DNA from: an uncultured delta proteobacterium
GTDB lineage: Bacteria > Desulfobacterota > Binatia > UBA9968
DNA length: 64,000 nucleotides
NCBI GenBank assembly: GCA_963745035.1
Contig: CAVUVW010000019.1
Span: 1-64,000 of the forward strand
Direction: 5' to 3'
Below the pieces are notes generated by a model that was not told the origin of the DNA, made no database searches, and saw only the letters and a list, made by a program, of their open reading frames with translations. Every line of letters begins with the position of its first letter. The first letter of the stretch is position 1. This document shows positions 4,889 to 30,244 of this stretch, in pieces. The position numbers and the translations under genes were made by a program.

Positions 4889-6163
4889 TTACTGCAAGTC
4901 CCGACCCACCGCGCGCTCGAGATCCGCTAGGTTTTGCAAAACGCTCGCGGTGGCCTTGTAGTATCCCATGCGCGCCTCCCGCAGAGCTCGCTGAGCCTCG
5001 AGCAGATTCAAGAACTCCGCGCGCCCAGTCTGATAAGCCGAGAGCGCGGATCTGAAGGAAAGCTCGGCTTGGGACAAAAGGCCTTCGCGGTATAACTGAA
5101 GGGATCGCTTGGCAGCCTGAACTCTGGCTTGCGACTCGCCAACCTGTTTGACGGTCATGTTTCGCATCGCCTCCCGGTTAGCCCTGGCGGCGCGGATCTC
5201 GGCCAGACTTTCTTCGACTTCGTAGTTGCGTCTGCCGGCAGTCCAGGGGGAAAAGGGAATTGTGATATTGATCATGGCGCCATATCGGTCCTTCTTCATT
5301 TCCATTGGCATGCGCATATAATCCCAGCCGAGCATAAAGTCGGGGTATTTTCGGTTGCGGTCAGCCAACTCGTACATGCTTTCCGCCCGCTCGATCTCCC
5401 GTTCCCTCCCTTGCAGCTCCGGACGGCTGGCCAACGCCAAATCGTCGAGCGTAGGAGCATCGAGCGCACCGTCGGGCAGCGTGAGATCGGCGGCGATCTG
5501 AACCGGCGTCCGCGGCGGTCGATACATGGCGGTGTTCAGCTTCACGGTGGCGACCGTGATTTCTTCTTCCGCAACAATTAATTGATTCAAAACCTGGCTT
5601 TGCTCCAACTGCGCCTTGAAAACATCCTGCTGCGCCACTTGTCCGACCCGGTAGCGCGCCTCGGTAGCGCCGATGACAACGCGCACGATCTCCAGCTGCT
5701 CGCGGAGAATCTCAACGGAGCGTTGCGCCATGAAAAGATCGGCGTAGGACATCTTGATCATCGCTATGATTTCGCGCTCCTTGGCGCGAAGCTCCTGCTC
5801 GGCGATGTTTATTTCGCGCTGGGCGATCTTCTCCTTGAGACCAAGCTTGCCAAAAAAAGGAACCATCTGGCGAATCCCGATCGAGTTCGTATCCGCCTGA
5901 TTGAGGCTGGTCGGGTTTGAGAGTGGCACCCCGCCGAGCTGGAACGCAATCTGCGGATCCTCCAGATAAGGCACTTGCTTGGCTTTCGCTTCCATGGCGC
6001 GGAGCCTGTGCTGGAGCTGTTGAATCTCGGGGTTTTTTTTCAGCGCTTGCTTGACTGCTCCGGCGAGAGTCAGAGGTGCCTCGGAGGCGAAAGCCGCCGC
6101 GGCAAGCTGAAAGACAAGCAATGGCGCGAGCGCCACTCTGCAGCTGAATAGGACCTTACACAT
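4889..6163 (-). CDS. TolC-family outer membrane factor (CusC-like)
   Basis: 424 aa, signal peptide, NPEI, helical OEP repeats, AYQTG..FLNLLEAQR; first gene of the cus operon; SD GGAGGAG. Confidence 0.9.
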   Translation of the reverse strand: MCKVLFSCRVALAPLLVFQLAAAAFASEAPLTLAGAVKQALKKNPEIQQLQHRLRAMEAKAKQVPYLEDPQIAFQLGGVPLSNPTSLNQADTNSIGIRQMVPFFGKLGLKEKIAQREINIAEQELRAKEREIIAMIKMSYADLFMAQRSVEILREQLEIVRVVIGATEARYRVGQVAQQDVFKAQLEQSQVLNQLIVAEEEITVATVKLNTAMYRPPRTPVQIAADLTLPDGALDAPTLDDLALASRPELQGREREIERAESMYELADRNRKYPDFMLGWDYMRMPMEMKKDRYGAMINITIPFSPWTAGRRNYEVEESLAEIRAARANREAMRNMTVKQVGESQARVQAAKRSLQLYREGLLSQAELSFRSALSAYQTGRAEFLNLLEAQRALREARMGYYKATASVLQNLADLERAVGRDLQ

Positions 6164-6314
6164 CGCTCCTCCATCAGATCATCTGCGTGCCAACAATGCA
6201 GTGGGCACATCAGAGAACGGCGCTGCCAATCCGGCAGCGCGCACGAATACGAAAACGCCGTCCGCTCGGTCGAAGAGCTGCGCAGGGCGGCGCCGGCCAA
6301 AAGGAGGAAAATCT

Positions 6315-6665
6315 CTAGATGCGAAGATTAGGCTTGAACGAAGCGATTGGAGGGCCGGCCGCAGACAAGTGTATGATTCTCCGCCCGGGCAAGAGATCAA
6401 ATGCGGACGGCGACAGGTGATGAGAAGCCAAGATCCATTGTAGACTCAAGCTGTAGACGAATTCCCCCGTCGGGGGCGGCAGAGACTGGAAAAAGGCCGT
6501 GCGGCAATCGGACTCGGTCTTTGGCTTATCGCCGGTACAGTCATGTGGCTCACGCGCTTCGGCTGCTTGCGCTGCGAACACCGGCAACAAGCGCCCGGGG
6601 CATATCGCACAAAGAGCGTAGATCACAAATAGCACTATAGAAATGTACTTATATCTAGGTCTCAT
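6315..6665 (-). CDS. Putative regulatory leader protein (hydrophobic N-term, CxxC, ends GPP...LRI*)
   Basis: 116 aa; LCAICPG, PHDC..SDC, AAGPPIASFKPNLRI-TAG; lies between a sigma70 promoter and cusC. Confidence 0.7.
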   Translation of the reverse strand: MRPRYKYISIVLFVIYALCAICPGRLLPVFAAQAAEAREPHDCTGDKPKTESDCRTAFFQSLPPPTGEFVYSLSLQWILASHHLSPSAFDLLPGRRIIHLSAAGPPIASFKPNLRI

Positions 6666-6680
6666 ATTCTCTTTGCCGCA

Positions 6681-6709
6681 ACTCTAGGGCGCTGATACTT
6701 TGATGTCAA
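6681..6709 (-). promoter_or_regulatory. Sigma70-type promoter for leader-cusCBA
   Basis: Minus strand TTGACA-17 nt-TAGAGT just upstream of the ATG at 6665. Confidence 0.65.
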
Positions 6710-6780
6710 CACGAAACTCGTATGCTGTTGTCAGGCGCATTTATTGCGCCCCTTAAAACAAAAAACAAGGAGGTAGTGTT

Positions 6781-7144
6781 ATGTCTCACCAGGCCGATCC
6801 TACCGTATCGATCATGACCGATTGCCACGACATTTGCCTTCAAACCCTGTCTTACTGTTTGGACAAAGGCGGCGACCATGGGCGGACGGGCATATTACAC
6901 TATTGATTGAGTGTGCCGAGATCTGCCGGACCGCGGCAAACTTCATGCTGCGCAATTCCGAGCACCATGCCCGGGTTTGTGGAGTCTGCGCCGACGTTTG
7001 CGACCGCTGTGCCGAAGATTGCGAGCGAGTGGCAGTGGGCGACGAGATGATGCAGCAATGCGCTGAATCTGCCGGTACTGCGTAAACGTTTGCCGGGAAA
7101 TGTCTCGACAGACCGAGCGCCCGCGCCAGGGGTCCGCAGCTTGA
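6781..7144 (+). pseudogene. Four-helix-bundle Cys-rich copper storage protein (DUF326/Csp3-like), two frameshifts
   Basis: SD AAGGAGG then MSHQ..DCHDICLQTLSYC, shift to ECAEICRTAANFMLRNS..CGVCADVCDRCAEDC, shift to ICRYCVNVCREM..TGA. Confidence 0.8.
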
Positions 7145-7233
7145 AACACGTTGCTCCAAGTACGGGCACGGGTATGGGAACCGGTGCCCGACTTTGAAGA
7201 TTCGATCTTGAGTCATCGTGTCGACCGTAAAAA

Positions 7234-7887
7234 TTACGCCTCATTCAGCCGCCGGTGGCCGCCGAAGTGCGGAATGAACGCGGGCGTCGAATCCATATAA
7301 TGCCGATATTTCTCACCGAACTCTCCGAGTACCTCTCTCTCTTCCCGGTGCGCAAGCTTGATGTACATCGTCACAAGAATCGGAAACATCACCAACGTGA
7401 TCAGCGTGGGCCACTGAAAGAGAAATCCAAACATGATCAGAATAAATCCCAGGTATTGCGGATGACGCACATACGCATACGGTCCGGTTGTCGCCAATGT
7501 GTGCGTCCGCTGAGCTTCATAAAGCACTTTCCACGAAGCGGACAAAAGAATGAAACCGCCTAAAATCAAAAGGTTGCTGAGAAGATGTAACGGATCAAAG
7601 TGAGGATCGATCTTCCAGCCGAGCAGCGTGTTCCAGAGATGACCGGCATCGTGAGATAACAAATCCAGATTTGGGTAGCGCTTTATCACCCAGCCGGAAA
7701 TCAAATAGATCGTCAACGGAAAGCCGTACATCTCGACGAAAAGGGCGACGATAAAAGCGGAGAACGCGCTGAAGGAGCGCCAATCACGCTTCGTCTGGGG
7801 CTTCGAGAAGCTAAAAGCGAAAATAATAAAAATCAAAGAATTAATAATCACCAAAGACCAGAGGCCATAAGCCGGTGCGTCCGTCAT
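7234..7887 (-). CDS. Isoprenylcysteine carboxyl methyltransferase (ICMT/PEMT) family membrane protein
   Basis: MTDAPAYGLW, EMYGFPLTIY, TGPYAYVRHPQY, EERE..EFG..Y; ATGA overlap with the upstream gene. Confidence 0.88.
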   Translation of the reverse strand: MTDAPAYGLWSLVIINSLIFIIFAFSFSKPQTKRDWRSFSAFSAFIVALFVEMYGFPLTIYLISGWVIKRYPNLDLLSHDAGHLWNTLLGWKIDPHFDPLHLLSNLLILGGFILLSASWKVLYEAQRTHTLATTGPYAYVRHPQYLGFILIMFGFLFQWPTLITLVMFPILVTMYIKLAHREEREVLGEFGEKYRHYMDSTPAFIPHFGGHRRLNEA

Positions 7888-8126: not shown

Positions 8127-8170
8127 ATATGTTTCCCCTATTCTCCAACGAGATCCGCCCCAATTACGGG

Positions 8171-10046: not shown

Positions 10047-10457
10047 TCACTCCAAATTCCAAGTAAACGTTCTTTCTTTGACTCCGGCAACGTCCTTAAT
10101 GATGAGCTCAATCCGTTTGGCTCCCGGCGAGAGCTTGGGAAAAGTAACGACGGACTCGCGGTGATGCCCGCCGCCTTTGTTCTCGATCGCCTTGGGGACA
10201 TAACTCTTGCCGGTGTCATCGCGCAGAACGGCGACGGTCTTGATGTCATAGGTATCGAGATTGACCGAGTGCGTGTCGAGCACGACCTGGAATCGCGGAT
10301 CATCGGCGCTCGTTGAACTCAAAAAAGTCACCTTTGCCGTGACACCGCCGCCGGCGACACTTTGCGTTGAGTTGGTTGCTGCCGCCCCGAATGTTTCGCT
10401 ATTGATCAATACGAGCGCGAAAGCGATCGTCGTTGTAAAAAGTCTGAAGACCTTCAT
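10047..10457 (-). CDS. Secreted hypothetical protein with DTHS and GGGHHR motifs
   Basis: 136 aa, SD AGGAGGG, signal peptide, beta-rich. Confidence 0.75.
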   Translation of the reverse strand: MKVFRLFTTTIAFALVLINSETFGAAATNSTQSVAGGGVTAKVTFLSSTSADDPRFQVVLDTHSVNLDTYDIKTVAVLRDDTGKSYVPKAIENKGGGHHRESVVTFPKLSPGAKRIELIIKDVAGVKERTFTWNLE

Positions 10458-10519
10458 GCTCAGTTCCCTCCTAACTAACTAGAACGATCCGAAAAAGTGA
10501 TAGCGGATAGGGGAAAGAG

Positions 10520-10957
10520 CTAAATTCTAAGTCGGGGGATTGAGAGATGTGGTGATAAACGAGGCTTCGCTGATAGCTGGATCGACGCCGGCACGCCGCG
10601 GCCGGTTAAGGCGCTCGCCGTTGCATTTAACAATGCCGCCGGCAAAAACGCGTTTACGACATCATCTTTGGGTACTTCCAGGCGAAAAATCGAAGTTACC
10701 CCTAACCAAAGCTTCAAAAGCGGACTTTCCGTGCAGTGAATTCTTGACGACGGCTTCTGGCGGAGTTCAACGGCAACGGCAGGAGATGAGTACGCGCGAT
10801 TGCTTGTCGCTAAGGCCGACGTCGTCTGAACTGGATGGATGTGGTCCGCCGACTCACTGTCGCTCAAGCAATGCTGCAATGCCCACGCGACTCCCGCGTT
10901 AGTGAGGATGATCGAAAGGCCGAGGATCGCAATGATTTTCGCTGATGAAAGGTTCAT
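10520..10957 (-). CDS. Putative regulatory leader protein (ends LRI*)
   Basis: MNLSSAKIIAILGLSIILTNAGVAWALQHC..DHIH..RIHC..SPHLSIPRLRI-TAG; start uncertain (ORF track gives 11008). Confidence 0.65.
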   Translation of the reverse strand: MNLSSAKIIAILGLSIILTNAGVAWALQHCLSDSESADHIHPVQTTSALATSNRAYSSPAVAVELRQKPSSRIHCTESPLLKLWLGVTSIFRLEVPKDDVVNAFLPAALLNATASALTGRGVPASIQLSAKPRLSPHLSIPRLRI

Positions 10958-11436: not shown

Positions 11437-12855
11437 TCAGAGTCCGGGGTAGACCTCGATGCCATCCCGGCGGAGATCCTCATCGGTTGCTGTGAGCGCG
11501 ACGGTTCCGGGTGGGTGTTTATACCAGCCCGGGTCTTCGTCGTAGCTCTGCAATTGATCGCGTACTTTTATGATCGTGAACAGCCCGCCCATCGAGATAT
11601 AATCGCCGAACGGACCCGATGCACCTTTCATCGAAATCGTGTTGCGCGGGTAAGGCATAACCTCGGCCATCTTGCCCATATCCATGCCGGTGTGACCCAT
11701 GGTCATATACGCCGGCAGCAGAGGCCGGAGTTTTTCGTCCAGTCCCTGCGGATCGACGCCGACCATGTTGGGAAAATCATGTCCCATCTGGTTCATCACA
11801 TGGTGTGTCATGTGACAGTGAAACGCCCAGTCGCCTGGCGCATCCGAGATAAACTCGATATTGCGCGTTTGGCCGACGCCGACGAGAACCGTCGATTCCG
11901 GCCATTGCGCGGATAGCGGGATTTCCTCTCCGTCAGTTGCTGTCACCCGGAAATGATGTCCATGAATATGCATCGGGTGGTGGTCGGTCGCTCCCAAGTT
12001 GCCCAAACGAATGCGCACCTTGTCGCCCGTCTTGCAGACCAATGGCGCCGTCGAGGGAAAGACTTTGCCGTTGATCGTGAGAACGTTGAAGTCCGTCATC
12101 TCCAGTGTATTCGGACGAGACGTTCCCGCCGGAATCGCCCACTCGCTGATCATCAACGAGAAGTCCCGATCGACGTGATACTCCGGCCGCGGATTTCTCG
12201 GATGGATGATAAACATGCCGATCATCCCCATGCCCATCTGGGTCATCTCGTCATGATGCGAGTGGAACATCTGCGTGCCGTACTGGCGCAAGGTGAACTC
12301 ATATTTCGCCGTTTCGCCGGATTTGATGTGTGGCTGAGTGAGCCCCCCGACGCCGTCCATGCCATTGGGAAGATTGAAACCGTGCCAGTGAATGGATGTA
12401 GCTACCTTTAGGCGATTGGTCACATAGATGCGCACCCTCTCGCCTTCGACGGCTTCGATGTGAGTGCTGTTCACACGGCCGTTGAAGCCCCAACACTTGA
12501 CGCGCAGACCGGCGTCGAACTGGTGATCGACTTCTTCGGCAATCAGGTGAAAGACTTTGACGCCGTCCATGATCTTGAACGGGAGAGCCGCTCCATTCGG
12601 AACGACGACTGGTTTGTAACCTCTACCCGGAAGGACGGGCGCTAGCGGTTTAACATCGACAGGGCCGCCGCTATAACTCTTTTCCCAGTAGGGTCGATCG
12701 CCTCCACGTTGCGAGTTGTAGCCTCTGAACGGTCTGTAATCTGCCCCGGAGCCTCCGTGGTTTGTGGCATGTGCTTCCCTCTGGGACAACGCGACACCTG
12801 CAAGAGTGGCAGCGCCGATTCCTAGGATTTCGCGCCGGGATATTTTTTTGCTCAT
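11437..12855 (-). CDS. Tat-exported multicopper oxidase
   Basis: SRREIL Tat motif; IHWHG, FHSH, HPMHIHGH, FHCHMTHH copper motifs. Confidence 0.93.
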   Translation of the reverse strand: MSKKISRREILGIGAATLAGVALSQREAHATNHGGSGADYRPFRGYNSQRGGDRPYWEKSYSGGPVDVKPLAPVLPGRGYKPVVVPNGAALPFKIMDGVKVFHLIAEEVDHQFDAGLRVKCWGFNGRVNSTHIEAVEGERVRIYVTNRLKVATSIHWHGFNLPNGMDGVGGLTQPHIKSGETAKYEFTLRQYGTQMFHSHHDEMTQMGMGMIGMFIIHPRNPRPEYHVDRDFSLMISEWAIPAGTSRPNTLEMTDFNVLTINGKVFPSTAPLVCKTGDKVRIRLGNLGATDHHPMHIHGHHFRVTATDGEEIPLSAQWPESTVLVGVGQTRNIEFISDAPGDWAFHCHMTHHVMNQMGHDFPNMVGVDPQGLDEKLRPLLPAYMTMGHTGMDMGKMAEVMPYPRNTISMKGASGPFGDYISMGGLFTIIKVRDQLQSYDEDPGWYKHPPGTVALTATDEDLRRDGIEVYPGL

Positions 12856-12870: not shown

Positions 12871-14292
12871 CTAATGCCCCGCAGTTCCGGTTGGCCGATT
12901 GGGCTCGGCCGAAGCCGCAGCCCGGATTGCGCCATTAGGGCTTGGCAATCGTCCAGCTAAAATTTGCCCGATGTCTGCTCGTGCGAGCCAGTAATCACGC
13001 AGCGCTTCGACGTAGCCGACGGCGGTTTGAATCTGCTGCTCACGGGCGCGCAAAAGCCGAAAGGGTCCGAGCTGCATGGCGTTGTAGTGGAGCTGGGTTT
13101 CATTGACGATCCGCTCATGCAGTGGCAAGAGAATGTCGCGATAATAGCTGGCGCGGTCGCTGGCTCCCTCCAACCGGTCGCGTGCTGCACGCGCTTGCCC
13201 CCTGATTCGAACTCCGAGGGAGTAATACTCCAGTTGAGAACGCCGCAGCTCAGCCGCGGTTCGTCCAAAGGCCGCTTGGCCTTGGTCGAACAGGGGAAGC
13301 ATGAAATCGATTCTCGGTCCGACTGCCCACGAACCATCGCTTCGTTCAGCTTCGGGTCCGGCGCTGAATTCCGGAATAAGGGCAGTCCATCTGGTTAATC
13401 CCAATTGCTCTCCCGAACTTACGATGCGCTGTTTCGCTTGGACGAGATCCAAGCTCCGCTCGAGAGAAACATGTTCGATGTCGGTTGTGTCGAGCGGCTG
13501 ATTAGGGAGTTCGGGCAGACGACCAGCGCTTTGCCATTGGGTTTGCGGTCCCCAAACTCCCATCAGGGCGTTCAACTCTTCGCGGCTCTGACGTACTGAA
13601 ACTTCGGCGGCCCTGAGCGCCAACTTGCCGGCTTCTAACTGAGCCCTTTCAGAGAAGTAGTCGAGATCCGAGAGATTGCCGGCTTGATAGAGTCGGTGCG
13701 CTATTTCGAACGAGGCCGCGAGAGCCTGAGCGATAGTCTGACGCAGTTCGAGTATCTGCTCGTCGGCCTCGTAGGTGTAAAAGGCTTTGCGTACCCGCCC
13801 TGCGAGATCCAGCACGGCGCCAGTCACGCGGGTCTTCGTTTCTTCAAATCGAGCCGCCGCTACACGTTTGCGCAACGGGATGTATAAGAGATTCAAGAAA
13901 TTCATCGCTGCTCCGAGCTCAAGGTCCGGTCGGCCTCCGCCGGAAACTGGAAATTTGACCGCGGCGTCGAAAATGGGATTGCTCAGAAGACCTGCCTGCA
14001 CGACGTCGGCCTGGGCGACCCCGAGATCGGAGTACACGGCTTGTAAGTCGCGATTATTGAGCAGAGCTACTTGCACGGCCGTGTCGGCTGTCAGTTTTTG
14101 CTTTAGCAAAGCACCGATTTTTTCTGCTGCTTGTTTGTCCAGCTCACTGCCGGCGTTCCACGCAATCTCCAGCGGGCGCCGCTGTTCTACCGCGGCCTTT
14201 ACATCTTGGAATCCTGCATCCAGGCTCATTGACACGCAGCCGCTCAACACCGAGCCGATAGTGCAGAACCCGACAATCTTTGCCAGAATCAT
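12871..14292 (-). CDS. TolC-family lipoprotein associated with the copper oxidase
   Basis: LSGC lipobox, AVQVALLNNRDLQ, AGLLSNP, YNAMQ, LRDYWLAR. Confidence 0.88.
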   Translation of the reverse strand: MILAKIVGFCTIGSVLSGCVSMSLDAGFQDVKAAVEQRRPLEIAWNAGSELDKQAAEKIGALLKQKLTADTAVQVALLNNRDLQAVYSDLGVAQADVVQAGLLSNPIFDAAVKFPVSGGGRPDLELGAAMNFLNLLYIPLRKRVAAARFEETKTRVTGAVLDLAGRVRKAFYTYEADEQILELRQTIAQALAASFEIAHRLYQAGNLSDLDYFSERAQLEAGKLALRAAEVSVRQSREELNALMGVWGPQTQWQSAGRLPELPNQPLDTTDIEHVSLERSLDLVQAKQRIVSSGEQLGLTRWTALIPEFSAGPEAERSDGSWAVGPRIDFMLPLFDQGQAAFGRTAAELRRSQLEYYSLGVRIRGQARAARDRLEGASDRASYYRDILLPLHERIVNETQLHYNAMQLGPFRLLRAREQQIQTAVGYVEALRDYWLARADIGQILAGRLPSPNGAIRAAASAEPNRPTGTAGH

Positions 14293-15386: not shown

Positions 15387-16088
15387 TTACTTCCGCTGTG
15401 TTGTCGGTTGAGGCTTCGTGATCTTGCTGATCACACGTTTTTCTGTGTCGATAGTGAAGTGTACCGTGTCACCGGGTTTGACAGTTTTGAGCATCGCCGG
15501 GGAACTGACTTTGTAACCCATGGTCATGGCCTCCATGAATCCCTTTATCTCGCCATGTGTTAAAACGATTTCACCATTTTCCGGAACCACCGCGACGACC
15601 TGACCCTGCGCGCTGACTGTTTTAGGCACGCCTTTGGGTTTAAGCGACGCCACATATGCCGAAACATCGATCAATTCGCGCACCGTCATCTTCTCGGTAA
15701 AGTCGGTCATCGGAGATTTACCGTCCGATTCCCGGTAAGCCTTAGGAACGACGGCATTGGGATTGAGGATTGATTCCGCGAAGAACTCGACGGGGTGCAT
15801 CGGCCCCATTTGACTCAGCTCGGGCGCGCTTTCCGTTGGACCCGGAAACCCTTCGCCGCGAACCTCGTGGCAGTAGTAACATTCGAATTTTTCGAAGACC
15901 GTTTTGCCTTTGGCAGGGTCACCTTTGGGCATCATGAAGCGCCACCCATGAGGATGATGGGAGTCGATGGACCGCGGCGCCGGCGCGGAGGATACCTTGC
16001 CGGTGTGTTTAGAAGCTGAGGAGGGTGCGATCAAAAACAGAGAACTCGTTACAATGCATGCGAGCGTGAGTAAAACTCGAGCGATCAT
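15387..16088 (-). CDS. Cytochrome c / CusF-like fusion protein
   Basis: Start MIARVLL at 16088 (SD GAGAGG); GDPAKGK..CYYCH heme motif, ESILNP; C-terminal THGEIKGFMEAMTMGY. Confidence 0.82.
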   Translation of the reverse strand: MIARVLLTLACIVTSSLFLIAPSSASKHTGKVSSAPAPRSIDSHHPHGWRFMMPKGDPAKGKTVFEKFECYYCHEVRGEGFPGPTESAPELSQMGPMHPVEFFAESILNPNAVVPKAYRESDGKSPMTDFTEKMTVRELIDVSAYVASLKPKGVPKTVSAQGQVVAVVPENGEIVLTHGEIKGFMEAMTMGYKVSSPAMLKTVKPGDTVHFTIDTEKRVISKITKPQPTTQRK

Positions 16089-16195
16089 AGTAGAACCTCT
16101 CGCCGATCGACGGCCGTAACGGTCTTGGCCGGTCAAGGGTCGACACGTTGCAGAGCTGACGAACGAAAAAATACGACGAAGCAGCGCGAGCGGTT

Positions 16196-16578
16196 CTAGA
16201 TACGTAGCACCGAGAGGAAGAGATACGGAGGAGTGTTGTTGGAACGGGAGTAACCGGGCGGACCGTGGAGCGAACGATACAACTGGCATGCGCTGGAACT
16301 GATCGGGGAATTTGGGAACATCGACGAGGGTGATGCGTTCAACGCGATCGTTCTTGCTTTGCGAAAATGATCGCGCTAAGGAGAAATACATTCAGCGTCG
16401 GACAGTGAATGACTGCATTGTCCTCGTGCTTATGGTGTGATTCGGAGTGATGATCGTGGCCATGGGCGGCGCTGCCGAATTTGGCTGGAAGAAAGGACTG
16501 CTCGCAGCTTGCCCATGCCGAAGCGGCACCGGCAAGAATTACGAATAGACAGGAAGTGATGGCAATCAGGCGTTTCAT
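16196..16578 (-). CDS. Putative regulatory leader protein (His-rich, ends HGPP...LRI*), frameshifted
   Basis: MKRLIAITSCLFVILAGAASAWASC..HGHDHHSESHHKHED..IHCP; another frame reads YRSLHGPPGYSRSNNTPPYLFLSVLRI-TAG ending at 16196. Confidence 0.65.
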
Positions 16579-18949: not shown

Positions 18950-18957
18950 ATTTGCTC

Positions 18958-19004: not shown

Positions 19005-19052
19005 CGCCGACCCAACCAGCGAGCTCTCGAGTTTCCGAAGAAGGAGTCAACC

Positions 19053-22927: not shown

Positions 22928-23365
22928 ATGCTCAAGCTGAAAGCATTTTTCCGACTGTTCATCGTCGCCCATCTGCTTGTCGCAAGTCTGATATTCCCAA
23001 CGCTTCATTTCCATTTCGTCGGTGATCATGATCATGAGTCGGACGAAATTCATCGGCATGGGATGGTCCACGCTCATTTCTTGGCGTCGCTGACTAGCGG
23101 TGAGAGCCGCACCTCAGGTATCCATCACGAGGATGGTGAATCTTCTGAACACGGCGGTGAGATCGGACTGGTTACGCTAACTTCTCACAAGCTCAAGGAT
23201 TCGGATCAGCCGTTTCACAAACAGCTCTACTTTTTAGATAATCACCAACGGCAGTTCACCGTCGCGACACTTTTCCGTGCCGTAGTCGGCAAGCCCGACT
23301 CTCCGCCTCGTCACCCAGAGTTTCAATTTCTCGGTTCTCCCCGTTCTCCGCCTAGGTTCGTCTAG
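22928..23365 (+). CDS. Putative His-rich regulatory leader protein (ends RSPP-RFV*)
   Basis: Hydrophobic N-term, LHFH..DHDHE..IHRHGMVHAH..HH, C-terminal GSPRSPPRFV-TAG; 90 nt before the RND operon. Confidence 0.72.
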   Translation: MLKLKAFFRLFIVAHLLVASLIFPTLHFHFVGDHDHESDEIHRHGMVHAHFLASLTSGESRTSGIHHEDGESSEHGGEIGLVTLTSHKLKDSDQPFHKQLYFLDNHQRQFTVATLFRAVVGKPDSPPRHPEFQFLGSPRSPPRFV

Positions 23366-23455
23366 TTCCCCGTTTTCCAGCACGTTGCGTTAGGAATTGT
23401 TATTCGAGCCCGATGCCGCGGCTGCGGCGTTGATGCTCGCCAGCGGAGGAACCCT

Positions 23456-25005
23456 ATGAAGGGTCTACTATCTGTTTCAGGTTTATTGCTCCTGATGTTT
23501 GCGTCAGCGTGCAATCATCATCACGAAGAGAAAAAGGAACCGGAGGCGATCAGCGTCACCAAGTGGACCGACAAGACCGAGTTGTTTGTCGAGTTCGCGC
23601 CGCTGCTGGTGGGGAAAGAAACTTCCTTCGCGGCTCATCTAACCGATCTCGAGACCTTCAAACCGGTTTCCGAAGGTACGCTGAGAGTCTCGTTTACTCC
23701 GCCCCAAGGAAAGGCAATCGTGGCGGAGGCCAAGAGCCCGACCGTGCCGGGAATCTATCGACCGACCGCGAAGATCGATCAGCCCGGCACCTACCGTATG
23801 GCGTTTCATCGTTATCGCCCCGGCTCGGCGGAGATCTACGACACCATCGATGCGGGCGAGGTCAAGGTTCTCGAGAAACCGGAGCCGCCAGCAAAAGCGG
23901 AAACGGCGCAAAGCGCGGGCATCACTTTCCTCAAGGAGCAGCAGTGGCGCATGGATTTCGCGACCGTTCCGGTGGGCGAGCGGGAACTGTCGGCGCTGCT
24001 GAAGATGAGCGCCGAGGTGAAGCCCGCCGCCGCCGGCCAGGTTCAGATCGTTGCGCCCGATTCCCGGGCAGAATCGTGACGTCGCCGCGCGGCGCTCCCA
24101 CTCCCGGACAGAAGGTGAAGCAAGGAGAGGAGCTGGCCGTGATTCTACCGACGCCCAGCAAAAATCGCGTGGAACTCGACGCCGAGCTGCGCAGCGCAAA
24201 ATCAGAACTGGAGGCGGCCGAGAAAGAACTGGAGCGGGTCCAGGAACTTTATAAAGACAAGATCGTCGCGCGCCGCAGGCTGGAGCAGTCCGAGCGCGAC
24301 GTGGCCGTGCAGCGCGCTCGTCTGGACGCCGCGCGCGCACAATTGGGCTTGCTCGATCCGAGCCAGGCTCCGGGCAAAGCGGAGCGTCCCAGGCCACGAG
24401 ATTTTCTCTACGCGCGCCCATCTCCGGAACAGTCGTGGCGGCGAACGCTGACTCCCGGCGCGCTGGTTGAAGCGGGCCAGAATCTGCTCTCGATCGTCGA
24501 TCTCGAGCGCGTCTGGATCGAGGGGCGGCTTTACGAGATCGACATTCCCAAGGTGCGCCAATTCGAGAAGAGCATGGTTTGCTGCCCCGGCGCTGCCCGA
24601 GCCATTCGCGCTGATTCGACCCAAAGCGCGCTTGCTGAATATCGGCAGCGTCATCGATCCGGCCACTCGCTCGGTGCCGCTTAATCCTGGAAGTTCAGAA
24701 CGATCAGTCGCAACTGCGCATCGGCCTGCACGGAAATCTTTCCATGCCCACTGGCGAAAAGTCCCGCGGTCTCGCGATTCCGGAAAGCGCCATCGTCGAC
24801 GACAAAGGAGTTCGCGGTCGCTTTCGTCCAGAAAGAAGGGGAGACGTTCGAACGCCGCGAGTTGGAGCTGGGCATCAAAAGCGAGGGCTACGCCGAGGTG
24901 AAGTCGGGATTGAAGGCTGGCGAGCGGATCGTGAGCAAAGGAGCCTACCGGGTACACCTGGGTTCATTGTCCACATCCCTGCCCGCTCACGGCCACGCTC
25001 ATTGA
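23456..25005 (+). CDS. RND periplasmic adaptor lipoprotein (CzcB-like), several frameshifts
   Basis: ASAC lipobox, TELFVEF, PGIY, FLKEQQW; later segments in other frames (PGRI, VEAGQ, VIDPATR, AIPESAIVDD); ends HGHAH-TGA. Confidence 0.82.
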
Positions 25006-25034
25006 CCGCAGATCGATCGCCTGAGGATTAACTC

Positions 25035-28000
25035 ATGATTACCAAACTTATCGGTTGGTCGCTTGAGAACCGCTTGATTGTCGTGGTGCTCGCGGCGGCG
25101 GTTCTCATCGGCGGTTTTTTTGTCGCGGTCAAGATGCCGGTGGACGTTTTTCCCGATCTGACGGCGCCTTCCGTTACGATAATCACCGAAGCTCACGGCA
25201 TGGCGCCTGAAGAAGTCGAGACCCTGGTCACGTTTCCCATCGAGACGGCGGTCAACGGCGCCTCCGGCGTGCGCCGCGTGCGCTCGTCGACGGCGACCGG
25301 CATCTCGGTGGTCTGGGTGGAATTTGAATGGGGCACGGACATCTACCAGGCCCGTCAAATCGTCAACGAGAAACTGCAGCTCGCCGCAGGGAGTCTGCCT
25401 CCCGAGACCGAGCGTCCGGTATTGGCGCCGATCTCATCGATCATGGGTGAGATCATGTTCATCAGCCTGACCAGCGACAAGCATACGCCGATGGATCTGC
25501 GCTCCGCTGCCGACTGGACGATTCGCCCGCGGCTCCTTTCCGTTCCCGGAGTATCTCAGGTCACGCCGATCGGCGGAGATGTCAAGGAGTACCAGGTGCG
25601 CGTCTCACCGGAACGGCTGGCAGCGGCGGGCGTCAGCTTGAGCCAATTGATCGCCGCCGTTAAGGGCGCCAACCAAAACACTTCCGCCGGCTTTTACGTC
25701 GAAGGCGGTCAGGAATATTTGATCCACGGCGCCGGCCGGGTGACGCGATTGGAAGACATCGCCAACACCGTGGTCGCCCTCAACAACGGCCGGCCGGTTT
25801 TAGTGGGCCATTTGGCCGATGTGCGTATTGGCCCCGCGATCAAGCGCGGCGAAGGCTCGGCGAAGGGCAAGCCCGCCGTGATCATCGCGCTGCAGAAACA
25901 ACCGGGAGCCAATACGTTGACGTTAACGGCGGAATTGGACCGAACTCTGGAAAACATTCAGAAGACGCTGCCGGCGGGCATGACGATCGACCGGCAAATC
26001 TTTCGCCAGGCGGATTTCATCCAGGTCTCCATCGATAACGTCATCGACGCGCTGCGCGACGGCGCCATCGTGGTGGTTGTCATCCTGCTTCTGTTTCTCA
26101 TGAATCTGCGCGCCACCTTCATCGCGCTGCTGGCGATCCCGCTCTCGCTGCTCGCCGCGGTGCTGACGCTCAAATTTTTCGGCGCGACGATCAACACCAT
26201 GACTCTTGGCGGCATGGCCATCGCGATCGGCGCGCTGGTCGACGACGCCATCATCGACGTCGAAAATGTTTTCCGGCGTTTGCGCGAGAACGCCAAGATC
26301 GAGCCGGCCCTGCGCGAGAACGCGCTGGCGGTAACGCTGCGCGCCTCTCTCGAGATTCGCAGCTCGATCACCTTTGCCACCTTCATCATTATGCTGGTGT
26401 TCGTGCCGCTGTTTTTCCTGAGCGGCGTCGAGGGCCGTCTACTCGCGCCGCTCGGCGTAGCCTATGTGGTTGCGCTCTTCGCTTCGCTGGTTGTCGCGGC
26501 CTCGGTAACGCCCGTGCTGTGCTCGTTCCTACTGCCGAATACGAAGGGAGTCACCGAGGGTGAAGACAGTCCGGTGGTGCGCTACCTGAAGAGCGCCTAC
26601 CTGAGAATCCTTACGGTAGTCCTGCAACGTACCAAGCTGATTATCGGGGTTGCGCTCGCGCTTTTCCTGGTGACGCTGGCAACGCTGCCGTTTATGGGCC
26701 GGGCCTTTCTCCCCGAGTTCAACGAAGGCACGTTGACGATCAATGCTGTGACCTTGCCGGGAACTTCGCTGGAGGAATCCAACCGGCTGGGTCAGTTGGT
26801 GGAGTCGGTGCTGCTCTCCTTCCCTGAAGTGAAGTCCACGGCGCGCCGGACCGGGCGCGCGGAGCTGGACGAACATGCCCAGGGCGTCGAGGCGGCGGAA
26901 ATCGATGTCGGCTTGAAAATGCAGAAACGCTCGAAGGAGGAGTTTCTCACGGAACTGCGCCGCGCTCTGACCACCGTGCCCGGGATGAACATCACCATCG
27001 GCCAGCCGATCTCCCACCGGATCGATCATATGCTGTCCGGCACGCGGGCCAATATCGCCGTCAAAATTTTCGGCGACGACCTGCGCCGGCTTCGGACCAT
27101 AGCGCAGCAAACACGCGACATCATGGCGAAGGTCCCTGGAGTCGTCGATCTCTCCATCGAGCAGCAGACCGACATTCCGGTCCTGGGCTTGCGATTCGAT
27201 CGTGAGCGCATCGCCCGGGTCGGACTCAAAGTGGAGGAGGTTGCCGAAGCCGTGGAGACAGCCTTTCTCGGCAAGGCGGTTTCGCGCGTGCTCGAAGGGC
27301 AAAGAAGCTTCGATCTCGTGGTGCGCGCCGAGGATGCCAACCGGCAGAGTCCCGAGGCCATCGGCGCCACGCTGATCGATACGCCGCTCGGCGGGAAGGT
27401 GCCCTTGGCCATGCTCGCCGAAGTCAAGAAAGTTCTGGGACCTAATACGATCAGCCGCGAAAACGTGCAGCGGAAGATCGTGGTCAGCGCCAACGTCGCC
27501 GGGCGGGATTTGCAAGGAGTCGTGCGCGAGATCCAGGACAACGTGGCCAAAGACGGTCTCGCTGCCGAGCGGTTATTACGTGAACTACGGCGGGCAATTC
27601 GAAAGCGCCGAAGAAGCGTCGCAGACGATCGCCTTTTTGAGCGTGCTGGTGATCGCAGGCATCGTCCTTTTGCTGTCGGCGGCGCTACGGTCGCTGCGCG
27701 ACGCGCTGATCATCCTGGTAAATCTGCCGCTGGCGCTGATCGGCGGCATATTCGGCATTTTCTTATCGGGCGGAGTTCTGAGCGTGGCCTCGATGATCGG
27801 CCTGATTACGCTCCTCGGCATCGCCGCGAGAAACGGCATCATGATGGTTTCGCACATCCGCCATCTGATGCAGGAGGAAGGCGAGAGTTTCGCACGCGCC
27901 GTGGAGCGCGGCGCGCTGGAGCGGCTTTCACCGATCCTGATGACGGCGCTGTGCGCGGGGTTCGCGCTGCTGCCGTTGGTGCTGCGCGCCGGCGAGCCGG

Positions 28001-28137
28001 GAAGCGAGATCCTCACGCCGATGGCGATCGTCATTCTGGCCGGGTTGTTGTCGTCCACCGCGCTCAACATGATCGTGGTGCCTGCGTTGTATTTGCGGTT
28101 CGGCCGTCCTGTGCCGGGAAAGGAAGTGACCGTATGA
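25035..28137 (+). CDS. CzcA/CusA-family heavy-metal RND permease, one frameshift near 27555
   Basis: VDVFPDL, LVDDAIIDVEN, FLPEFNEG, SHRIDHMLSG; continues in ORF 27580-28137 (YGGQFE, RNGIMM, PILMTA). Confidence 0.9.
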
Positions 28138-29378: not shown

Positions 29379-29400
29379 CGGCGCATTCTTTGGCTTGTAG

Positions 29401-29484
29401 CGCTTCAAGGTTTCCGAGCCGGTGCTGGTGACGATCTCAGGATTGGTGGGCTTGATCCTTTGGCCGCTGCTGCGGTCCATGTGA
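29401..29484 (+). pseudogene. 3' remnant of a second chrA
   Basis: Translates RFKVSEPVLVTISGLVGLILWPLLRSM*, versus intact ChrA end RYKISEPIIVTISGVIGLILWPLVRGG*. Confidence 0.82.
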
Positions 29485-29528
29485 TTCGGACAAGTTCAGT
29501 AGCGGCTTTCAGCGCCAGTTTCCGGTTG

Positions 29529-29681
29529 TCACTTCCAACCTTCTTCCGAACGGTCGTCATCTTCATCATCGTCGCCGTCATCCCGCTCGTTTAGGACCGC
29601 ATAGGCGAAAATCACGATGATAAAGATCACGGCCACGATGATGAATACCGAACCGTATAGGAGCCATGTCAACATCGACAT
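29529..29681 (-). CDS. 50-aa single-pass membrane protein with acidic tail
   Basis: SD GGAGG; MSMLTWLLYGSVFIIVAVIFIIVIFAYAVLNERDDGDDDEDDDRSEEGWK (below the ORF-track cutoff). Confidence 0.65.
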   Translation of the reverse strand: MSMLTWLLYGSVFIIVAVIFIIVIFAYAVLNERDDGDDDEDDDRSEEGWK

Positions 29682-29703
29682 AGAGCCTCCGGTGAGCGGG
29701 TCT

Positions 29704-29808
29704 TTACCCCATGAATCCTGTATAAAGCGCGGCGCCCAACGCGTAGGTCAGCGTTCCGCCGACAGCCAGCCAAATCAAACCTTTCAGCCAGAGAGGGAAA
29801 TCTTCCAT
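29704..29808 (-). CDS. 34-aa membrane peptide
   Basis: SD GGAG; MEDFPLWLKGLIWLAVGGTLTYALGAALYTGFMG. Confidence 0.55.
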   Translation of the reverse strand: MEDFPLWLKGLIWLAVGGTLTYALGAALYTGFMG

Positions 29809-29929
29809 GAATCGGCTCCATTTCCGATGCTACGTGGCATGAAATGTCTGCCACGGTAGAGATAAGGCGCGCGAGCAAGTAGATGGTTCGCGCAGTTGGA
29901 AAAAGAACTGTGGAAAAGAGCCCTGGAGG

Positions 29930-30244
29930 CTAGATCAGAAACACGCGGTGGAGTTTGTGGAGCTGCGAATGTTTTCGGAACTCGAGAACCAGATCAAGAT
30001 GACAGATCGTCGCGATCAGAGTCACAAGCGCGACGTTGGGCTGTTTGGTTCGGCTGGCCGACTCGATGATATTGTTCGCGAGAGGTCCCCATCCGCCTCG
30101 TTTTGATCCGGCGCCGCCGGCATCGTCGGGCGCCGTTGAAACAGCGGCTTGGCCGGGCACTTCGTCCAGGTCTTCGACGACGTCGAACCCAGAAAGGCTG
30201 ATCCAGCCGAAAATGAGCAGAGCGGATACAAGCCTCCTGCACAT
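29930..30244 (-). CDS. Putative leader protein (ends HKLHRVFLI*)
   Basis: MCRRLVSALLIFGWISLSGFDVVEDLD..LANNIIESA..HSQLHKLHRVFLI-TAG. Confidence 0.6.
   Translation of the reverse strand: MCRRLVSALLIFGWISLSGFDVVEDLDEVPGQAAVSTAPDDAGGAGSKRGGWGPLANNIIESASRTKQPNVALVTLIATICHLDLVLEFRKHSQLHKLHRVFLI

What the first reader, a model, noticed from the sequence alone, without database searches (positions are those of the whole stretch)
6163..30244. Five leader ORFs ending in UAG with an adjacent anti-Shine-Dalgarno: a candidate repeated translational attenuation system
Seen: five ORFs of about 105-145 aa (6315-6665, 10520-10957, 16196-16578, 22928-23365, 29930-30244) each sit about 60-150 nt upstream of an operon. 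All have an N-terminal hydrophobic segment, and four have Cys/His-rich middles. Three end in LRI*, one in FLI* and one in RSPPRFV*; two LRI members carry GPP shortly upstream. All five use TAG, and in each the bases at or just after the stop are complementary to a downstream SD. No CusRS, CueR or CsoR gene is in the window. Established: Bordetella CruR (DUF2946) is an exported CxxC leader with a C-terminal RAPP arrest motif that controls a copper transporter gene, and RAPP/RGPP-like arrest peptides and stop-codon stalling (TnaC) are known. Inference: these are nascent-chain sensors whose ribosome dwell at or near the terminal codon melts an SD-sequestering stem. I do not recognise the LRI-UAG class as described.
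Basis: partly seen in the sequence, partly recalled or inferred. Interest (0 to 1): 0.88.

Follow-up and report, generated by a model that had tools for sequence, protein, structure and literature searches.

The report
Leader peptides heading metal-efflux operons
Small exported, His/Cys-rich proteins with strongly conserved C-terminal tails sit in front of copper/heavy-metal efflux genes in an uncultured soil bacterium; they look like new, unannotated relatives-by-design of the published CutF/CruR metal-sensing leader peptides, not a wholly new system.

Summary
The five ORFs exist, but the description needs correcting. Copy 3 is not one ORF: it is split over two frames. Copy 5 precedes only a conserved 34-aa ORF, not an efflux operon. 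UAG is not conserved in homologues.

The five belong to four sequence families with no detectable mutual homology and no Pfam or NCBIfam model. The 'LRI' class (copies 2 and 3) is real: 285 cluster representatives in 1.84 billion proteins. Its last ten residues (RHLFLSVLRI) are the most conserved block, and 131 of the 150 best hits end in Ile.

Homologues lie upstream of OEP, cytochrome c-CusF and CusB genes. AlphaFold gives only an N-terminal helix. All four families share a G-poor, pyrimidine-rich stretch around the stop codon. The downstream SD is predicted to pair with the leader's 3' end far more often than in genomic background. Covariation was not shown, and no single window copy is significant on its own.

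Best reading (about 0.55): cis-acting, exported metal-sensing leader peptides of the CutF/CruR type (published 2022-2025), here with new tails, some without prolines. This is a new variant of a known kind. Whether the tail arrests ribosomes, and whether the output is SD unmasking or Rho-dependent termination, is inferred only.

The parts
6315..6665 (-). L1 leader ORF, 116 aa. It has a signal-like N-terminus, an HDC...C motif and the tail AGPPIASFKPNLRI-TAG.
   Evidence: There are five full-length homologues (42-62% identity). The tail S-x-A-x-PPI...LRI is invariant at 8 of its 18 positions. Stops among the four fetched loci are TAA 3 and TAG 1.
6681..6709 (-). Promoter-like site (TTGACA-17-TAGAGT) just upstream of the L1 start.
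   Evidence: This is a consensus scan only.
6285..6314 (-). Pyrimidine-rich tract after the L1 stop (70% Y).
   Evidence: It is not the predicted partner of the SD in the fold.
6270..6275 (-). Predicted partner (CUUC-type) of the SD of the OEP gene, +42 to +47 after the L1 stop.
   Evidence: pair probability 0.69-1.0. This is a single-sequence fold.
4889..6163 (-). Outer-membrane efflux protein (OEP) gene downstream of L1. Its SD is at 6168-6173.
   Evidence: PF02321, 1.6e-44.
10520..10957 (-). L2 leader ORF, 145 aa, a divergent member of the 'LRI' (A2) family. Features are AWALQHC, RIHC and the tail HLSIPRLRI-TAG.
   Evidence: (family HMM 7e-32).
10468..10536 (-). L2 3' end and intergenic region. 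The SD (10468-10473) is predicted to pair with 10533-10536 inside the tail codons (p 0.64) or with +11 after the stop (p 0.33). The post-stop 30 nt are 83% Y.
10047..10457 (-). 136-aa exported protein of unknown family downstream of L2.
   Evidence: no Pfam match. A similar gene follows the family member in L034.
16339..16578 (-). L3, N-terminal piece (79 aa, ends TGA): signal, AWASC, His-rich stretch, VIHC.
   Evidence: (family HMM positions 6-78, E 0.0025).
16196..16342 (-). L3, C-terminal piece in another frame: ..HGPPG..TPPYLFLSVLRI-TAG.
   Evidence: HMM positions 120-140, E 0.096; tails of intact homologues align here. Contigs of relatives lack one base at 16372 and one at 16293, which restores one frame.
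16095..16194 (-). L3 intergenic region. The SD (16095-16100) is predicted to pair with 16189-16194, +4 to +9 after the stop (p about 1.0).
15387..16088 (-). Cytochrome c-CusF fusion gene downstream of L3, followed by an ECF sigma gene (14839-15384).
   Evidence: The same gene type follows 4 of the 10 homologues' downstream genes tested.
22928..23365 (+). L4 leader ORF, 145 aa, 16 His and no Cys, tail GSPRSPPRFV-TAG (RSPP three residues before the end).
   Evidence: PRSPP is invariant in 3 full-length homologues and 1 partial one, and all four end in TAG.
23345..23449 (+). L4 3' end and intergenic region. The SD (23444-23449) is predicted to pair with 23345-23350, inside the S-P codons of PRSPP (p 0.99).
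23456..24830 (+). CusB-like membrane-fusion gene downstream of L4, read in three frames in this assembly. It is followed by a split RND gene (25035-28137) and an OEP gene (to 29378).
29930..30244 (-). L5 ORF, 104 aa: TM helix, DVVEDLDE, LANNIIESA, tail LHKLHRVFLI-TAG.
   Evidence: There are matches in 25 of 90 genomes of the family and two paralogues in the own genome.
29815..29929 (-). L5 intergenic region. The post-stop tract is 77% Y. The SD (29815-29820) is predicted to pair with 29904-29908 (+24 to +28, p 0.69).
29704..29808 (-). Conserved 34-aa membrane peptide (MEDFPLWLK...) downstream of L5.
   Evidence: present in 14 of 19 loci; no Pfam match.

Best explanation
L1, L2, L3 and L4 are cis-acting, Sec-exported metal-sensing leader peptides of the CutF/CruR kind. 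Each heads a copper/heavy-metal efflux transcription unit: OEP, an unknown periplasmic protein, cytochrome c-CusF plus an ECF sigma, and CusB-CusA-OEP.

Proposed working, all of it inferred:
1. The signal peptide takes the nascent chain into the Sec channel.
2. The His/Cys motifs reach the periplasm while the ribosome is decoding the conserved C-terminal tail.
3. Metal binding changes how long the ribosome dwells on that tail.
4. The ribosome's presence on the G-poor, pyrimidine-rich last ~45 nt plus first ~35 nt after the stop either frees the sequestered SD of the next gene (CutF type) or hides a Rho entry site (CruR/TnaC type).

L5 has the same architecture: a TM helix, a conserved tail, a pyrimidine tract and a sequestered SD. 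It controls a 34-aa membrane peptide, and its signal is unknown.

The four families are not detectably homologous to each other or to DUF2946. The resemblance is one of design.
For: Real, conserved genes.
- The LRI-class profile finds 285 representatives at E<=1e-3 (138 at <=1e-10) in 1.84 billion proteins. Nearly all alignments run to the protein's last residue.
- The word-indexed search finds 331 at E<=1e-5. Of the 120 listed, every source name is 'hypothetical protein' apart from one garbled metaclust entry, and none has a Pfam domain.
- Tail codons vary synonymously (CGT/CGC/CGG, CTA/CTT/CTC, TCC/TCT/TCA/TCG), so selection acts on the peptide.

The tail is the most constrained part.
- The last 10 columns have 3.06 bits against a mean of 1.59, ranking 1 of 131 ten-column windows.
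- 131 of the 150 best hits end in Ile.
- The spacing from the conserved HC motif to the C-terminus is 73 aa at the median, with a 10-90% range of 70-74 in 95 proteins. The first Cys to HC spacing varies from 34 to 45.

No fold. AlphaFold2 with 116 sequences gives only helix 3-34. The rest has pLDDT 51-62 and pTM is 0.26.

Synteny. 7 of 10 downstream genes tested in homologous loci are OEP, cytochrome c-CusF or CusB. In the window they are OEP, cytochrome c-CusF and CusB.

RNA.
- The post-stop 30 nt are at least 70% pyrimidine in 27 of 39 loci, against 2.6% of 4,658 background stops.
- C exceeds G in 53 of 53 loci over -45 to +35. C-G is at least 0.15 in 62% of loci against 1.3% of background.
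- The mean predicted probability that the SD pairs with the leader's last 45 nt plus stop+35 is 0.69 in 39 loci, against 0.19 in 250 background gene pairs. Mann-Whitney p is 1e-14, overstated because the loci are kin.
- In the L5 class, heads fit the tails of their own clade better than those of the other clade: -20.1 and -23.8 against -17.6 and -16.2 kcal/mol.

Tail motifs. L4's RSPP lies three residues before the end, as CruR's RAPP does (PMC9426467, passage read). The genome's one DUF2946 hit over the cut-off ends QRAPPLA.

Regulators. No two-component, MerR or CsoR gene lies on the contig. Rho is present in the genome.

Rarity. Only 8 of 24,616 ORFs of 70-200 aa in the genome combine an N-terminal hydrophobic segment, a pyrimidine-rich post-stop tract and a hydrophobic or PP tail. 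Three of the eight are L1, L2 and L5. Three of the other five, inspected, look spurious; the remaining two were not inspected.
Against: - No experiment exists. Arrest, metal sensing and cis action are all inferred.
- Covariation was not shown. RNAalifold on 10 L5-class intergenic regions gave no consensus structure.
- On 7 LRI-class regions RNAalifold gave 20 pairs, only 1 of them with a compensatory change, and an unfavourable covariation term (+0.88). The SD paired with the R-H-L codons, which are conserved for coding reasons anyway.
- Dinucleotide shuffles of the head reached the real duplex energy in more than 10 of 200 trials for 7 of 14 L5-class loci. Much of the signal is therefore composition, not order.
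- For the five window copies, 31%, 6%, 6%, 7.5% and 15% of random post-stop regions pair with the SD as well.
- The predicted partner of the SD moves among loci (tail codons, post-stop tract, or elsewhere). In A2_L061 (0.04) and L5_L011 (0.02), as in the window's L1 (0.00), the SD is not predicted to pair with the leader's end, and in L4_L040 only weakly (0.19).
- The LRI and VFLI tails have no known arrest motif.
- L5 has further conserved blocks (DVVEDLDE, NNIVESA) that suggest a function as a protein.
- L3, CusB and CusA are frame-broken in this assembly.
Confidence: 0.55

Rival explanations
1. The output is Rho-dependent transcription attenuation (CruR/TnaC type), not SD unmasking. The G-poor, C/U-rich stretch that spans the leader's end is a rut site. 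A ribosome lingering on the tail hides it, and release exposes it. This rivals only the last step of the best explanation, and both mechanisms could act together.
For: There is a C>G bubble over -45 to +35 in 53 of 53 loci. Mean C-G is +0.16 against -0.03 in 4,658 background stops. Intergenic gaps are 62-151 nt in the window and up to about 240 nt in homologues, which is long for pure SD melting by a terminating ribosome. CruR uses exactly this signature, with a 162-nt gap (PMC9426467 and PMC9973294, passages read). A Rho gene is present.
Against: The G-poor stretch is only about 80 nt long, and much of it is predicted to be base-paired with the SD region, whereas rut sites are unstructured.
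Confidence: 0.3
2. They are ordinary small periplasmic metal-binding or regulatory proteins that act in trans (CzcI-like). Their tail serves a protein-level purpose, and the pairing of the SD with the upstream gene's end is plain translational coupling within an operon.
For: There is conserved full-length synteny and there are conserved Cys/His motifs. L5 has three conserved blocks besides the tail. CzcI, which lacks a proline tail, is described as a metal-sensing regulator encoded before czcCBA (PMC9973294, discussion passage).
Against: No fold is predicted beyond the signal helix, despite 116 aligned sequences. The most conserved block is the extreme C-terminus. The spacing to the C-terminus is tight while the sequence between is poorly conserved. 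A typical family member has no match in 72,556 plasmid records at E<=0.01, so no similarity to a plasmid-borne czcI was detected there. I did not check that such a record is in that collection.
Confidence: 0.25
3. The C-terminal ..Phi-x-Ile-COOH tail is a ligand for a periplasmic PDZ protease or tail-specific protease (DegS/Prc type), and metal-dependent exposure of the tail triggers an ECF sigma cascade.
For: The free C-terminal residue is almost invariant (Ile in 131 of 150). An ECF sigma gene lies in the L3 operon. By eye, an ECF-sigma-like ORF precedes the family member in L025 (not tested by HMM). That L/F-x-I resembles a class II PDZ ligand is my recollection, not a tool result.
Against: None of 17 PDZ_2 matches and none of 3 Peptidase_S41 matches lies on the window's contig. 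Most family loci seen have no sigma gene within the 1.5-3 kb fetched. This reading does not explain the pyrimidine tract or the SD pairing.
Confidence: 0.07
4. The ORFs, or their tails, are chance open frames over non-coding leader RNA.
For: L3 is broken. L1 has only 2 homologues in the 5.8-billion-protein word search.
Against: Homologues are end-to-end with synonymous variation and frame-specific conservation in all four families. No Rfam family matches anywhere in the window, at gathering scores or at E<=0.1.
Confidence: 0.02

Closest known systems
CutF of Rhodobacter capsulatus and the 'CutF-like' set (Ozturk et al., mBio 2023, PMC9973294; bioRxiv 10.1101/2025.02.05.636593)
   Same: Both are small proteins (<150 aa) with a Sec signal, a periplasmic Cys/His metal motif and a conserved C-terminal stalling-type tail. 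An anti-SD (CTTC) stem hides the next gene's SD. The position is upstream of OEP, ACR_tran, HlyD_D23 and CusF genes, and the action is cis-only.
   Different: No sequence or HMM similarity was found. The LRI class (RHLFLSVLRI-COOH) and the L5 class (HKLHRVFLI-COOH) have no PP in the last 15 residues, which was a filter of that survey. Intergenic gaps here are often over 100 nt. The host is Candidatus Binatia, not Pseudomonadota or Bacteroidota. I could not see the paper's supplementary lists or cluster logos.
CruR (Bp2923, DUF2946) of Bordetella pertussis (Roy et al., mBio 2022, PMC9426467)
   Same: Both are metal-sensing upstream ORFs. [quoted passage not shown] Both have a C>G bubble across the ORF end and intergenic region and are poorly structured proteins.
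   Different: CruR represses a TonB-dependent importer through Rho when copper relieves arrest, and it works without its signal peptide. None of the five leaders matches PF11162 at E<=1.
CzcI of Cupriavidus metallidurans
   Same: It is a small protein encoded directly before czcCBA. It lacks a proline tail and is thought to be a metal-sensing regulator (as cited in PMC9973294).
   Different: A family member found nothing in the plasmid collection.
SecM, MifM, VemP (force-sensitive arrest peptides); TnaC, SpeFL (stalling at the stop codon, Rho-coupled)
   Same: The architecture is the same: an N-terminal export signal, a C-terminal arrest segment within a tunnel's length of the end, and a downstream SD in a stem or a rut site next to the stop.
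   Different: The sensed quantity differs (secretion activity, tryptophan, ornithine) and the motifs are unrelated. These comparisons rest on my own knowledge, except where they are quoted in the two papers above.

Membership tests
DUF2946 (Pfam PF11162; CruR/CutF family) | Match to the family HMM | tested here: not met
   hmmscan at E<=1 gave no family for L1, L2, L3 (both pieces), L4 and L5, nor for 8 homologues. A six-frame search of the whole genome with PF11162 hits only C14:344031-344381 (25.6 bits) and C14:539306-539659 (17.6 bits), neither in the window.
DUF2946 (Pfam PF11162; CruR/CutF family) | Conserved CXXC (CruR) or CxxxC (CutF) metal motif after the signal peptide | tested here: not met
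   The LRI class has one Cys after the AWA cleavage-like site and a second about 38 residues later in I-H-C. L1 has HDC..x10..C. L4 has no Cys and 16 His. L5 has no conserved Cys or His motif.
DUF2946 (Pfam PF11162; CruR/CutF family) | C-terminal RAPP-type motif a few residues before the stop | tested here: inconclusive
   L4 has PRSPP plus 3 residues, invariant in its homologues. hhalign of the L4 class against the genome's DUF2946 member aligns only those 13 tail columns (probability 2.7%). L1 has GPPI 12 residues from the end. L2 and L5 have none.
'CutF-like' operational set of Ozturk et al. 2023 | [quoted passage not shown] | tested here: inconclusive
   By inspection, L1 (116 aa), L4 (145 aa) and the L3 tail meet the PP rule. 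L2 (145 aa) and L5 (104 aa) do not. The typical LRI-class tail ..SLPIDLARHLFLSVLRI has no PP. The signal peptide was judged by hydrophobicity and AxA only, because no predictor was available.
'CutF-like' operational set of Ozturk et al. 2023 | Lies directly upstream of a metal-homeostasis gene, with an SD-sequestering stem | tested here: met
   Synteny. Predicted SD pairing is enriched over background, but there is no covariation.
Ribosome arrest peptides (SecM/MifM/TnaC kind) | Demonstrated elongation or termination arrest that depends on the nascent peptide sequence | not testable with these tools
   Only indirect evidence exists: the tail is the most conserved block, selection acts at the peptide level, and spacing is fixed.

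The most novel reading that the evidence does not exclude
The RHLFLSVLRI-COOH tail (LRI class) and the HKLHRVFLI-COOH tail (L5 class) are new, proline-free arrest peptides that act at or next to the stop codon. In the LRI class the final Ile is nearly invariant and UGA stops are avoided (3 of 26 against 45% background), which hints at an RF1-linked termination step. On this reading, uncultured Binatia regulate a whole metal-resistance island through several independently evolved nascent-chain sensors in place of two-component or MerR regulators, and they use the same device (L5) for a non-metal signal that controls a 34-aa membrane peptide.
Probability: 0.3. Interest if true: 0.8.

Novelty: new variant of a known kind. 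Interest (0 to 1): 0.55.

Why it matters
If these leaders work as proposed, co-translational, cross-membrane metal sensing by nascent chains reaches beyond the DUF2946 family and beyond proline-based stalling. It would extend into a phylum known only from metagenomes. Unrelated peptide tails would also have converged on one RNA design: a G-poor pyrimidine tract around the stop and a masked SD.

That would give arrest-peptide research new sequences to test. It would give annotators a rule for recognising such leaders, which all sources now call 'hypothetical protein'. It would also explain how metal-efflux operons are controlled where no classical regulator is encoded nearby. If the leaders do not work this way, they are still a sizeable unannotated family of exported metal-associated proteins.

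Tried and rejected
One family. MAFFT, phmmer and a family HMM found no similarity among L1, L2/L3, L4 and L5. hhalign probabilities were 0.3%, 0.2% and 1.3%.

UAG as a conserved feature. Rejected. Only the four L4-class loci all end in TAG.

Consensus RNA structure. RNAalifold on the L5-class regions gave nothing. On the LRI-class regions upstream of OEP genes it gave a weak structure. Only a local hairpin about 35-50 nt after the stop had a compensatory change, in one pair (2 sequences).

Intrinsic terminators after the leaders. The pattern scan found none at the five stops. By eye, the L3 subfamily has a short GC hairpin plus a T-rich run just after the stop. I did not test this further.

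Known RNA families. None in the window.

Plasmid homologues or CzcI annotation. No match.

ESM Atlas. Only clusters named 'hypothetical protein'.

Literature search for the tail strings. 0 papers. A search for Binatia + copper + efflux returned 2 listings, which I did not read.

Genome-wide scan for more leaders of this design. Five further hits. The three I inspected were low-complexity or antisense frames; the other two I did not inspect.

Sequencing runs. The holders carry only about 0.2 of the sampled words, and their contigs are 90-95% alike, so they come from relatives and not from the source strain. They cannot show whether the L3 frameshifts are assembly errors or real mutations.

Supplementary files of PMC9973294 (the lists and logos of 29 clusters) were not available, so I cannot exclude that one of those clusters overlaps the families described here.

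Unpublished genomes were used as follows.
- G019: L016 and L029. L029 is one of the 12 rows of alignment A2, which was used. The public record L055 appears to be the same sequence (same tail, stop codon, gap and downstream start).
- G041: L008 and L065.
- G022: L017.
- Shares: 4 of 39 loci, 3 of 39, 3 of 14, 2 of 26, and 1 of 9.
- Alignments A4, A5, A6, A7 and A9 and searches do not use them.

Full report
What is there.

The region 4.9-31 kb of the window is a metal-resistance island (Pfam; tblastn). Its genes are:
- OEP (4889-6163, -);
- multicopper oxidase (11437-12855, -);
- a second OEP (12871-14292, -);
- ECF sigma (14839-15384, -);
- a cytochrome c-CusF fusion (15387-16088, -);
- ChrB and ChrA (17966-20279);
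- a superoxide dismutase;
- a CusB-like gene (from 23456, +), an RND pump (25035-28137, +) and a third OEP (to 29378, +).

Titles of related genome records name the organisms Candidatus Binatia, 'Syntrophobacteraceae' or 'Deltaproteobacteria' MAGs. The window's genome is 7.4 Mb in 28 contigs, 92.6% complete.

The observation.

The third is not. 16196-16578 is 383 nt. A 79-aa frame from 16578 ends at a TGA (16339), and the tail ..TPPYLFLSVLRI-TAG is in another frame. Relatives in the same genus have intact ORFs of 125-134 aa, with the same N-terminal part and the same tail.

Contigs of 90-95% similar relatives from public metagenomes lack one base at 16372 and one at 16293. Together these put the two pieces into one frame. 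The neighbouring CusB-like gene reads in three frames and the RND gene in two. So either this assembly carries indel errors or the island is decaying. I cannot tell which.

L5 is not upstream of an efflux operon. It follows ppk, is convergent with the RND/OEP genes, and precedes a 34-aa ORF.

The LRI ending is not chance. 21 of 60,922 ORFs of at least 40 aa in the genome end in LRI, and three of them are these.

Four families, not one.

The five share no detectable similarity across classes. Profile-profile comparison gives probabilities of 0.3%, 0.2% and 1.3%. None matches Pfam or NCBIfam.

(i) The LRI class holds L2 and L3. A family HMM built from 12 loci scores L2 at 7e-32, the L3 N-piece at 0.0025 and the L3 tail piece at 0.096, against all 60,922 ORFs of the genome. 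The profile finds 285 cluster representatives at E<=0.001 in 1.84 billion proteins. A second search finds 331 at E<=1e-5. Among the 120 listed there, every source name is 'hypothetical protein' apart from one garbled metaclust entry, and none has a Pfam domain. The consensus is a signal peptide ending AWA, then x3-C-L-x-H-D-x-H, a variable His-rich stretch, I-H-C, G-P-A, L-W-L-x-A-x-F, and the tail R-H/Y-L-F/L-L-S-V/I-L/F-R/Q/L-I at the very C-terminus. The L3 subfamily adds GPPG about 20 residues before the end.

(ii) The L1 class has five homologues of 42-62% identity, with HDC...C and the tail S-x-A-x-P-P-I-x-x-L-x-x-x-L-R-I.

(iii) The L4 class is His-rich without Cys, and its tail is PRSPP plus three residues.

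(iv) The L5 class matches in 25 of 90 genomes of the taxonomic family, with two paralogues in the own genome. It has a TM helix, D-x-x-E-D-L, N-N-I-V-E-S-A and the tail L-H-K-L-H-R-V-F-L-I.

Why they look like leader peptides and not ordinary proteins.

- The last ten columns of a 116-sequence alignment of the LRI class are the most conserved ten-column window: 3.06 bits against a mean of 1.59, rank 1 of 131.
- 131 of the 150 best hits end in Ile.
- The tail codons vary at synonymous positions, so the peptide is what is selected.
- The distance from the conserved H-C to the C-terminus is 73 residues, with a 10-90% range of 70-74 in the 95 of 115 full-length proteins that have the motif. The sequence between is poorly conserved, and the spacing on the N-terminal side varies more, 34-45.
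- AlphaFold2 with 116 sequences predicts only the N-terminal helix (residues 3-34, pLDDT 82-93). The remaining 110 residues are coil at pLDDT 51-62, and pTM is 0.26.
- Downstream genes in homologous loci are OEP (2), cytochrome c-CusF (4) and CusB (1) among 10 tested. The other three are an NfeD protein, an enoyl-CoA hydratase (possibly a wrong pick of mine) and an unknown protein like the one after L2.

The RNA around the stop.

All four families share a feature that the proteins do not explain.
- The 30 nt after the stop are 60-87% pyrimidine, and at least 70% in 27 of 39 loci. Among 4,658 stops of long ORFs in this genome, 2.6% reach 70% (mean 48%, sd 11%).
- Over -45 to +35, C exceeds G in 53 of 53 loci. 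C-G is at least 0.15 in 62% of loci, against 1.3% of background.
- I folded each locus from 45 nt before the stop to 15 nt into the next gene. The SD is predicted paired with mean probability 0.80 (background 0.60). It pairs specifically with the leader's last 45 nt or the stop plus 35 nt with mean probability 0.69, against 0.19 in 250 background gene pairs. The Mann-Whitney p of 1e-14 overstates the case, because the loci are kin.

In the window the predicted partners of the SD are as follows:

| Leader | Position relative to the stop | Probability | Note |
|---|---|---|---|
| L1 | +42 to +47 | 0.69-1.0 | the CCUCC at +10 is left unpaired |
| L2 | -14 to -11 | 0.64 | alternative at +11, 0.33 |
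| L3 | +4 to +9 | 1.0 | |
| L4 | -18 to -13 | 0.99 | inside the S-P codons |
| L5 | +24 to +28 | 0.69 | |

Limits of that evidence.

- Taken singly, 31%, 6%, 6%, 7.5% and 15% of random post-stop regions pair with the five window SDs at least as well.
- Dinucleotide shuffles of the head reach the real energy in at most 10 of 200 trials for only 7 of 14 L5-class loci. The signal is therefore largely one of composition.
- RNAalifold found no consensus for the L5 class on a MAFFT alignment.
- For the LRI class it found a weak consensus without supporting covariation.
- The one comparative hint is that L5-class heads fit the tails of their own clade better than those of the other clade: -20.1 and -23.8 against -17.6 and -16.2 kcal/mol. 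That is a single evolutionary contrast.

Stop codon.

UAG is not conserved. The LRI class has TAG 12, TAA 11, TGA 3 of 26 unique loci. The L5 class has 7, 5 and 7 of 19. The L1 class, window copy included, has TAG 2 and TAA 3. L4 has TAG in 4 of 4. The scarcity of TGA in the LRI class (3 of 26 against 45% of long ORFs; binomial p 3e-4, kin not independent) is unexplained.

Comparison with what is known.

The principle is published.
- CruR of Bordetella (DUF2946) is an upstream ORF with CXXC and an RAPP motif three residues before its end. It controls Rho-dependent termination through a C>G-rich unstructured stretch (PMC9426467; abstract and passages read).
- CutF of Rhodobacter capsulatus is exported co-translationally and binds Cu through CxxxC. 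It stalls on a C-terminal proline motif and thereby opens a stem with a CTTC anti-SD that hides the cutO SD.
- A survey listed 5,334 'CutF-like' proteins in 29 clusters, most often upstream of OEP, ACR_tran, HlyD_D23 and CusF genes. Its filters included length <150 aa and PP within the last 15 residues. CzcI was noted as a member without a proline tail (PMC9973294, abstract and passages read; bioRxiv 10.1101/2025.02.05.636593, abstract and outline only).

The present leaders match that design point for point. They are not members by sequence. PF11162 hits nothing in the window, and only one ORF elsewhere in the genome passes its cut-off. That ORF ends ..QRAPPLA.

By tail motif and tail position, L4 (RSPP plus 3 residues) is the closest of the five to CruR. 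L1 and the L3 subfamily carry PP or GPPG further upstream. The core LRI tail and the L5 tail have no proline at all. The tail strings occur in none of the 8.4 million papers searched.

Mechanism.

I commit to the CutF/CruR-type reading for L1-L4 at about 0.55. I leave open whether the ribosome's dwell on the tail frees the SD or hides a Rho entry site. The G-poor tract fits both, Rho is encoded, and the gaps of 62-240 nt are long for a terminating ribosome alone. The steps from metal binding to ribosome dwell are inference by analogy.

The absence of Response_reg, MerR_1 and CsoR genes from the whole 295-kb contig is consistent with local post-transcriptional control. An ECF sigma and ChrB are present, however.

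L5 shares the architecture and has the strongest SD-pairing signal. Its neighbours vary: CNNM/CBS in 2 of 5 tested, otherwise a PMT-type glycosyltransferase, TctA and an unknown. What it senses is open.

Verdict.

This is a new variant of a known kind. Interest is moderate: new, unannotated leader families with proline-free conserved tails, several in one island, in an uncultured phylum.

Noticed in passing
window 23456-28137 (+): The CusB-like gene aligns to an intact homologue in three successive frames, switching near 24055 and near 24550-24570. The RND gene is split near 27570: ACR_tran positions 3-839 are in one frame and 848-1020 in the 27580-28137 frame. The first frame then runs on, by chance, into the OEP gene as a 1447-aa ORF. 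With the two shifts in L3, that makes at least five frame breaks in 12 kb. The cause is either assembly indels or a decaying island.
   Followed up: partly
window 29704-29808 (-), and loci L005-L022: A conserved 32-40-aa membrane peptide (MEDFPxWLK..VG..Y) follows the L5-class gene in 14 of 19 loci at a gap of 106-211 nt. It has no Pfam match. A second small hydrophobic-acidic ORF (29529-29681, -) follows it in the window.
   Followed up: partly
G000:C14:344031-344381 (+), locus L062: This is the genome's only ORF over the DUF2946 cut-off (25.6 bits). It is His-rich (..HDHHDHDHHGRDHG..) and ends ..APRSQRAPPLA, a canonical RAPP tail. I did not examine its neighbourhood.
   Followed up: no
loci L066-L072 and window 16166-16195 (-): In the L3 subfamily the stop is followed at once by a short GC-rich palindrome (for example ACCGCGCTCGCGGT) and then a T-rich run. 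It looks like a weak intrinsic terminator that a ribosome at the stop would cover. This was seen by eye only. The pattern scan did not call it in the window.
   Followed up: no
LRI-class loci: TGA stops are rare (3 of 26 unique loci, against 45% of long ORFs in the genome). TAG and TAA are about equal. The L5 class shows no such bias (7 TGA of 19).
   Followed up: partly
locus L032: Two leader-plus-cytochrome c-CusF modules stand in tandem (leader 134 aa, then a 224-aa gene, then leader 135 aa, then a 239-aa gene). The module therefore duplicates as a unit.
   Followed up: no
LRI-class loci upstream of OEP genes (alignment A8, columns 67-82 and about 93-114): Two hairpins recur in the intergenic region. 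One is CCCAG..TTGGG-type, about 35-50 nt after the stop, with a compensatory change in 2 of 7 sequences at one pair. The other is GCGC-loop-GCGC-type. A CYTTAGCTT word is also conserved at +8 to +16. Their role is unknown.
   Followed up: partly
window 17966-20279: A ChrB regulator and a ChrA chromate transporter pair, with an Fe/Mn superoxide dismutase gene (21047-21640), lies between the L3 and L4 units. No leader ORF of the kinds described precedes them.
   Followed up: no
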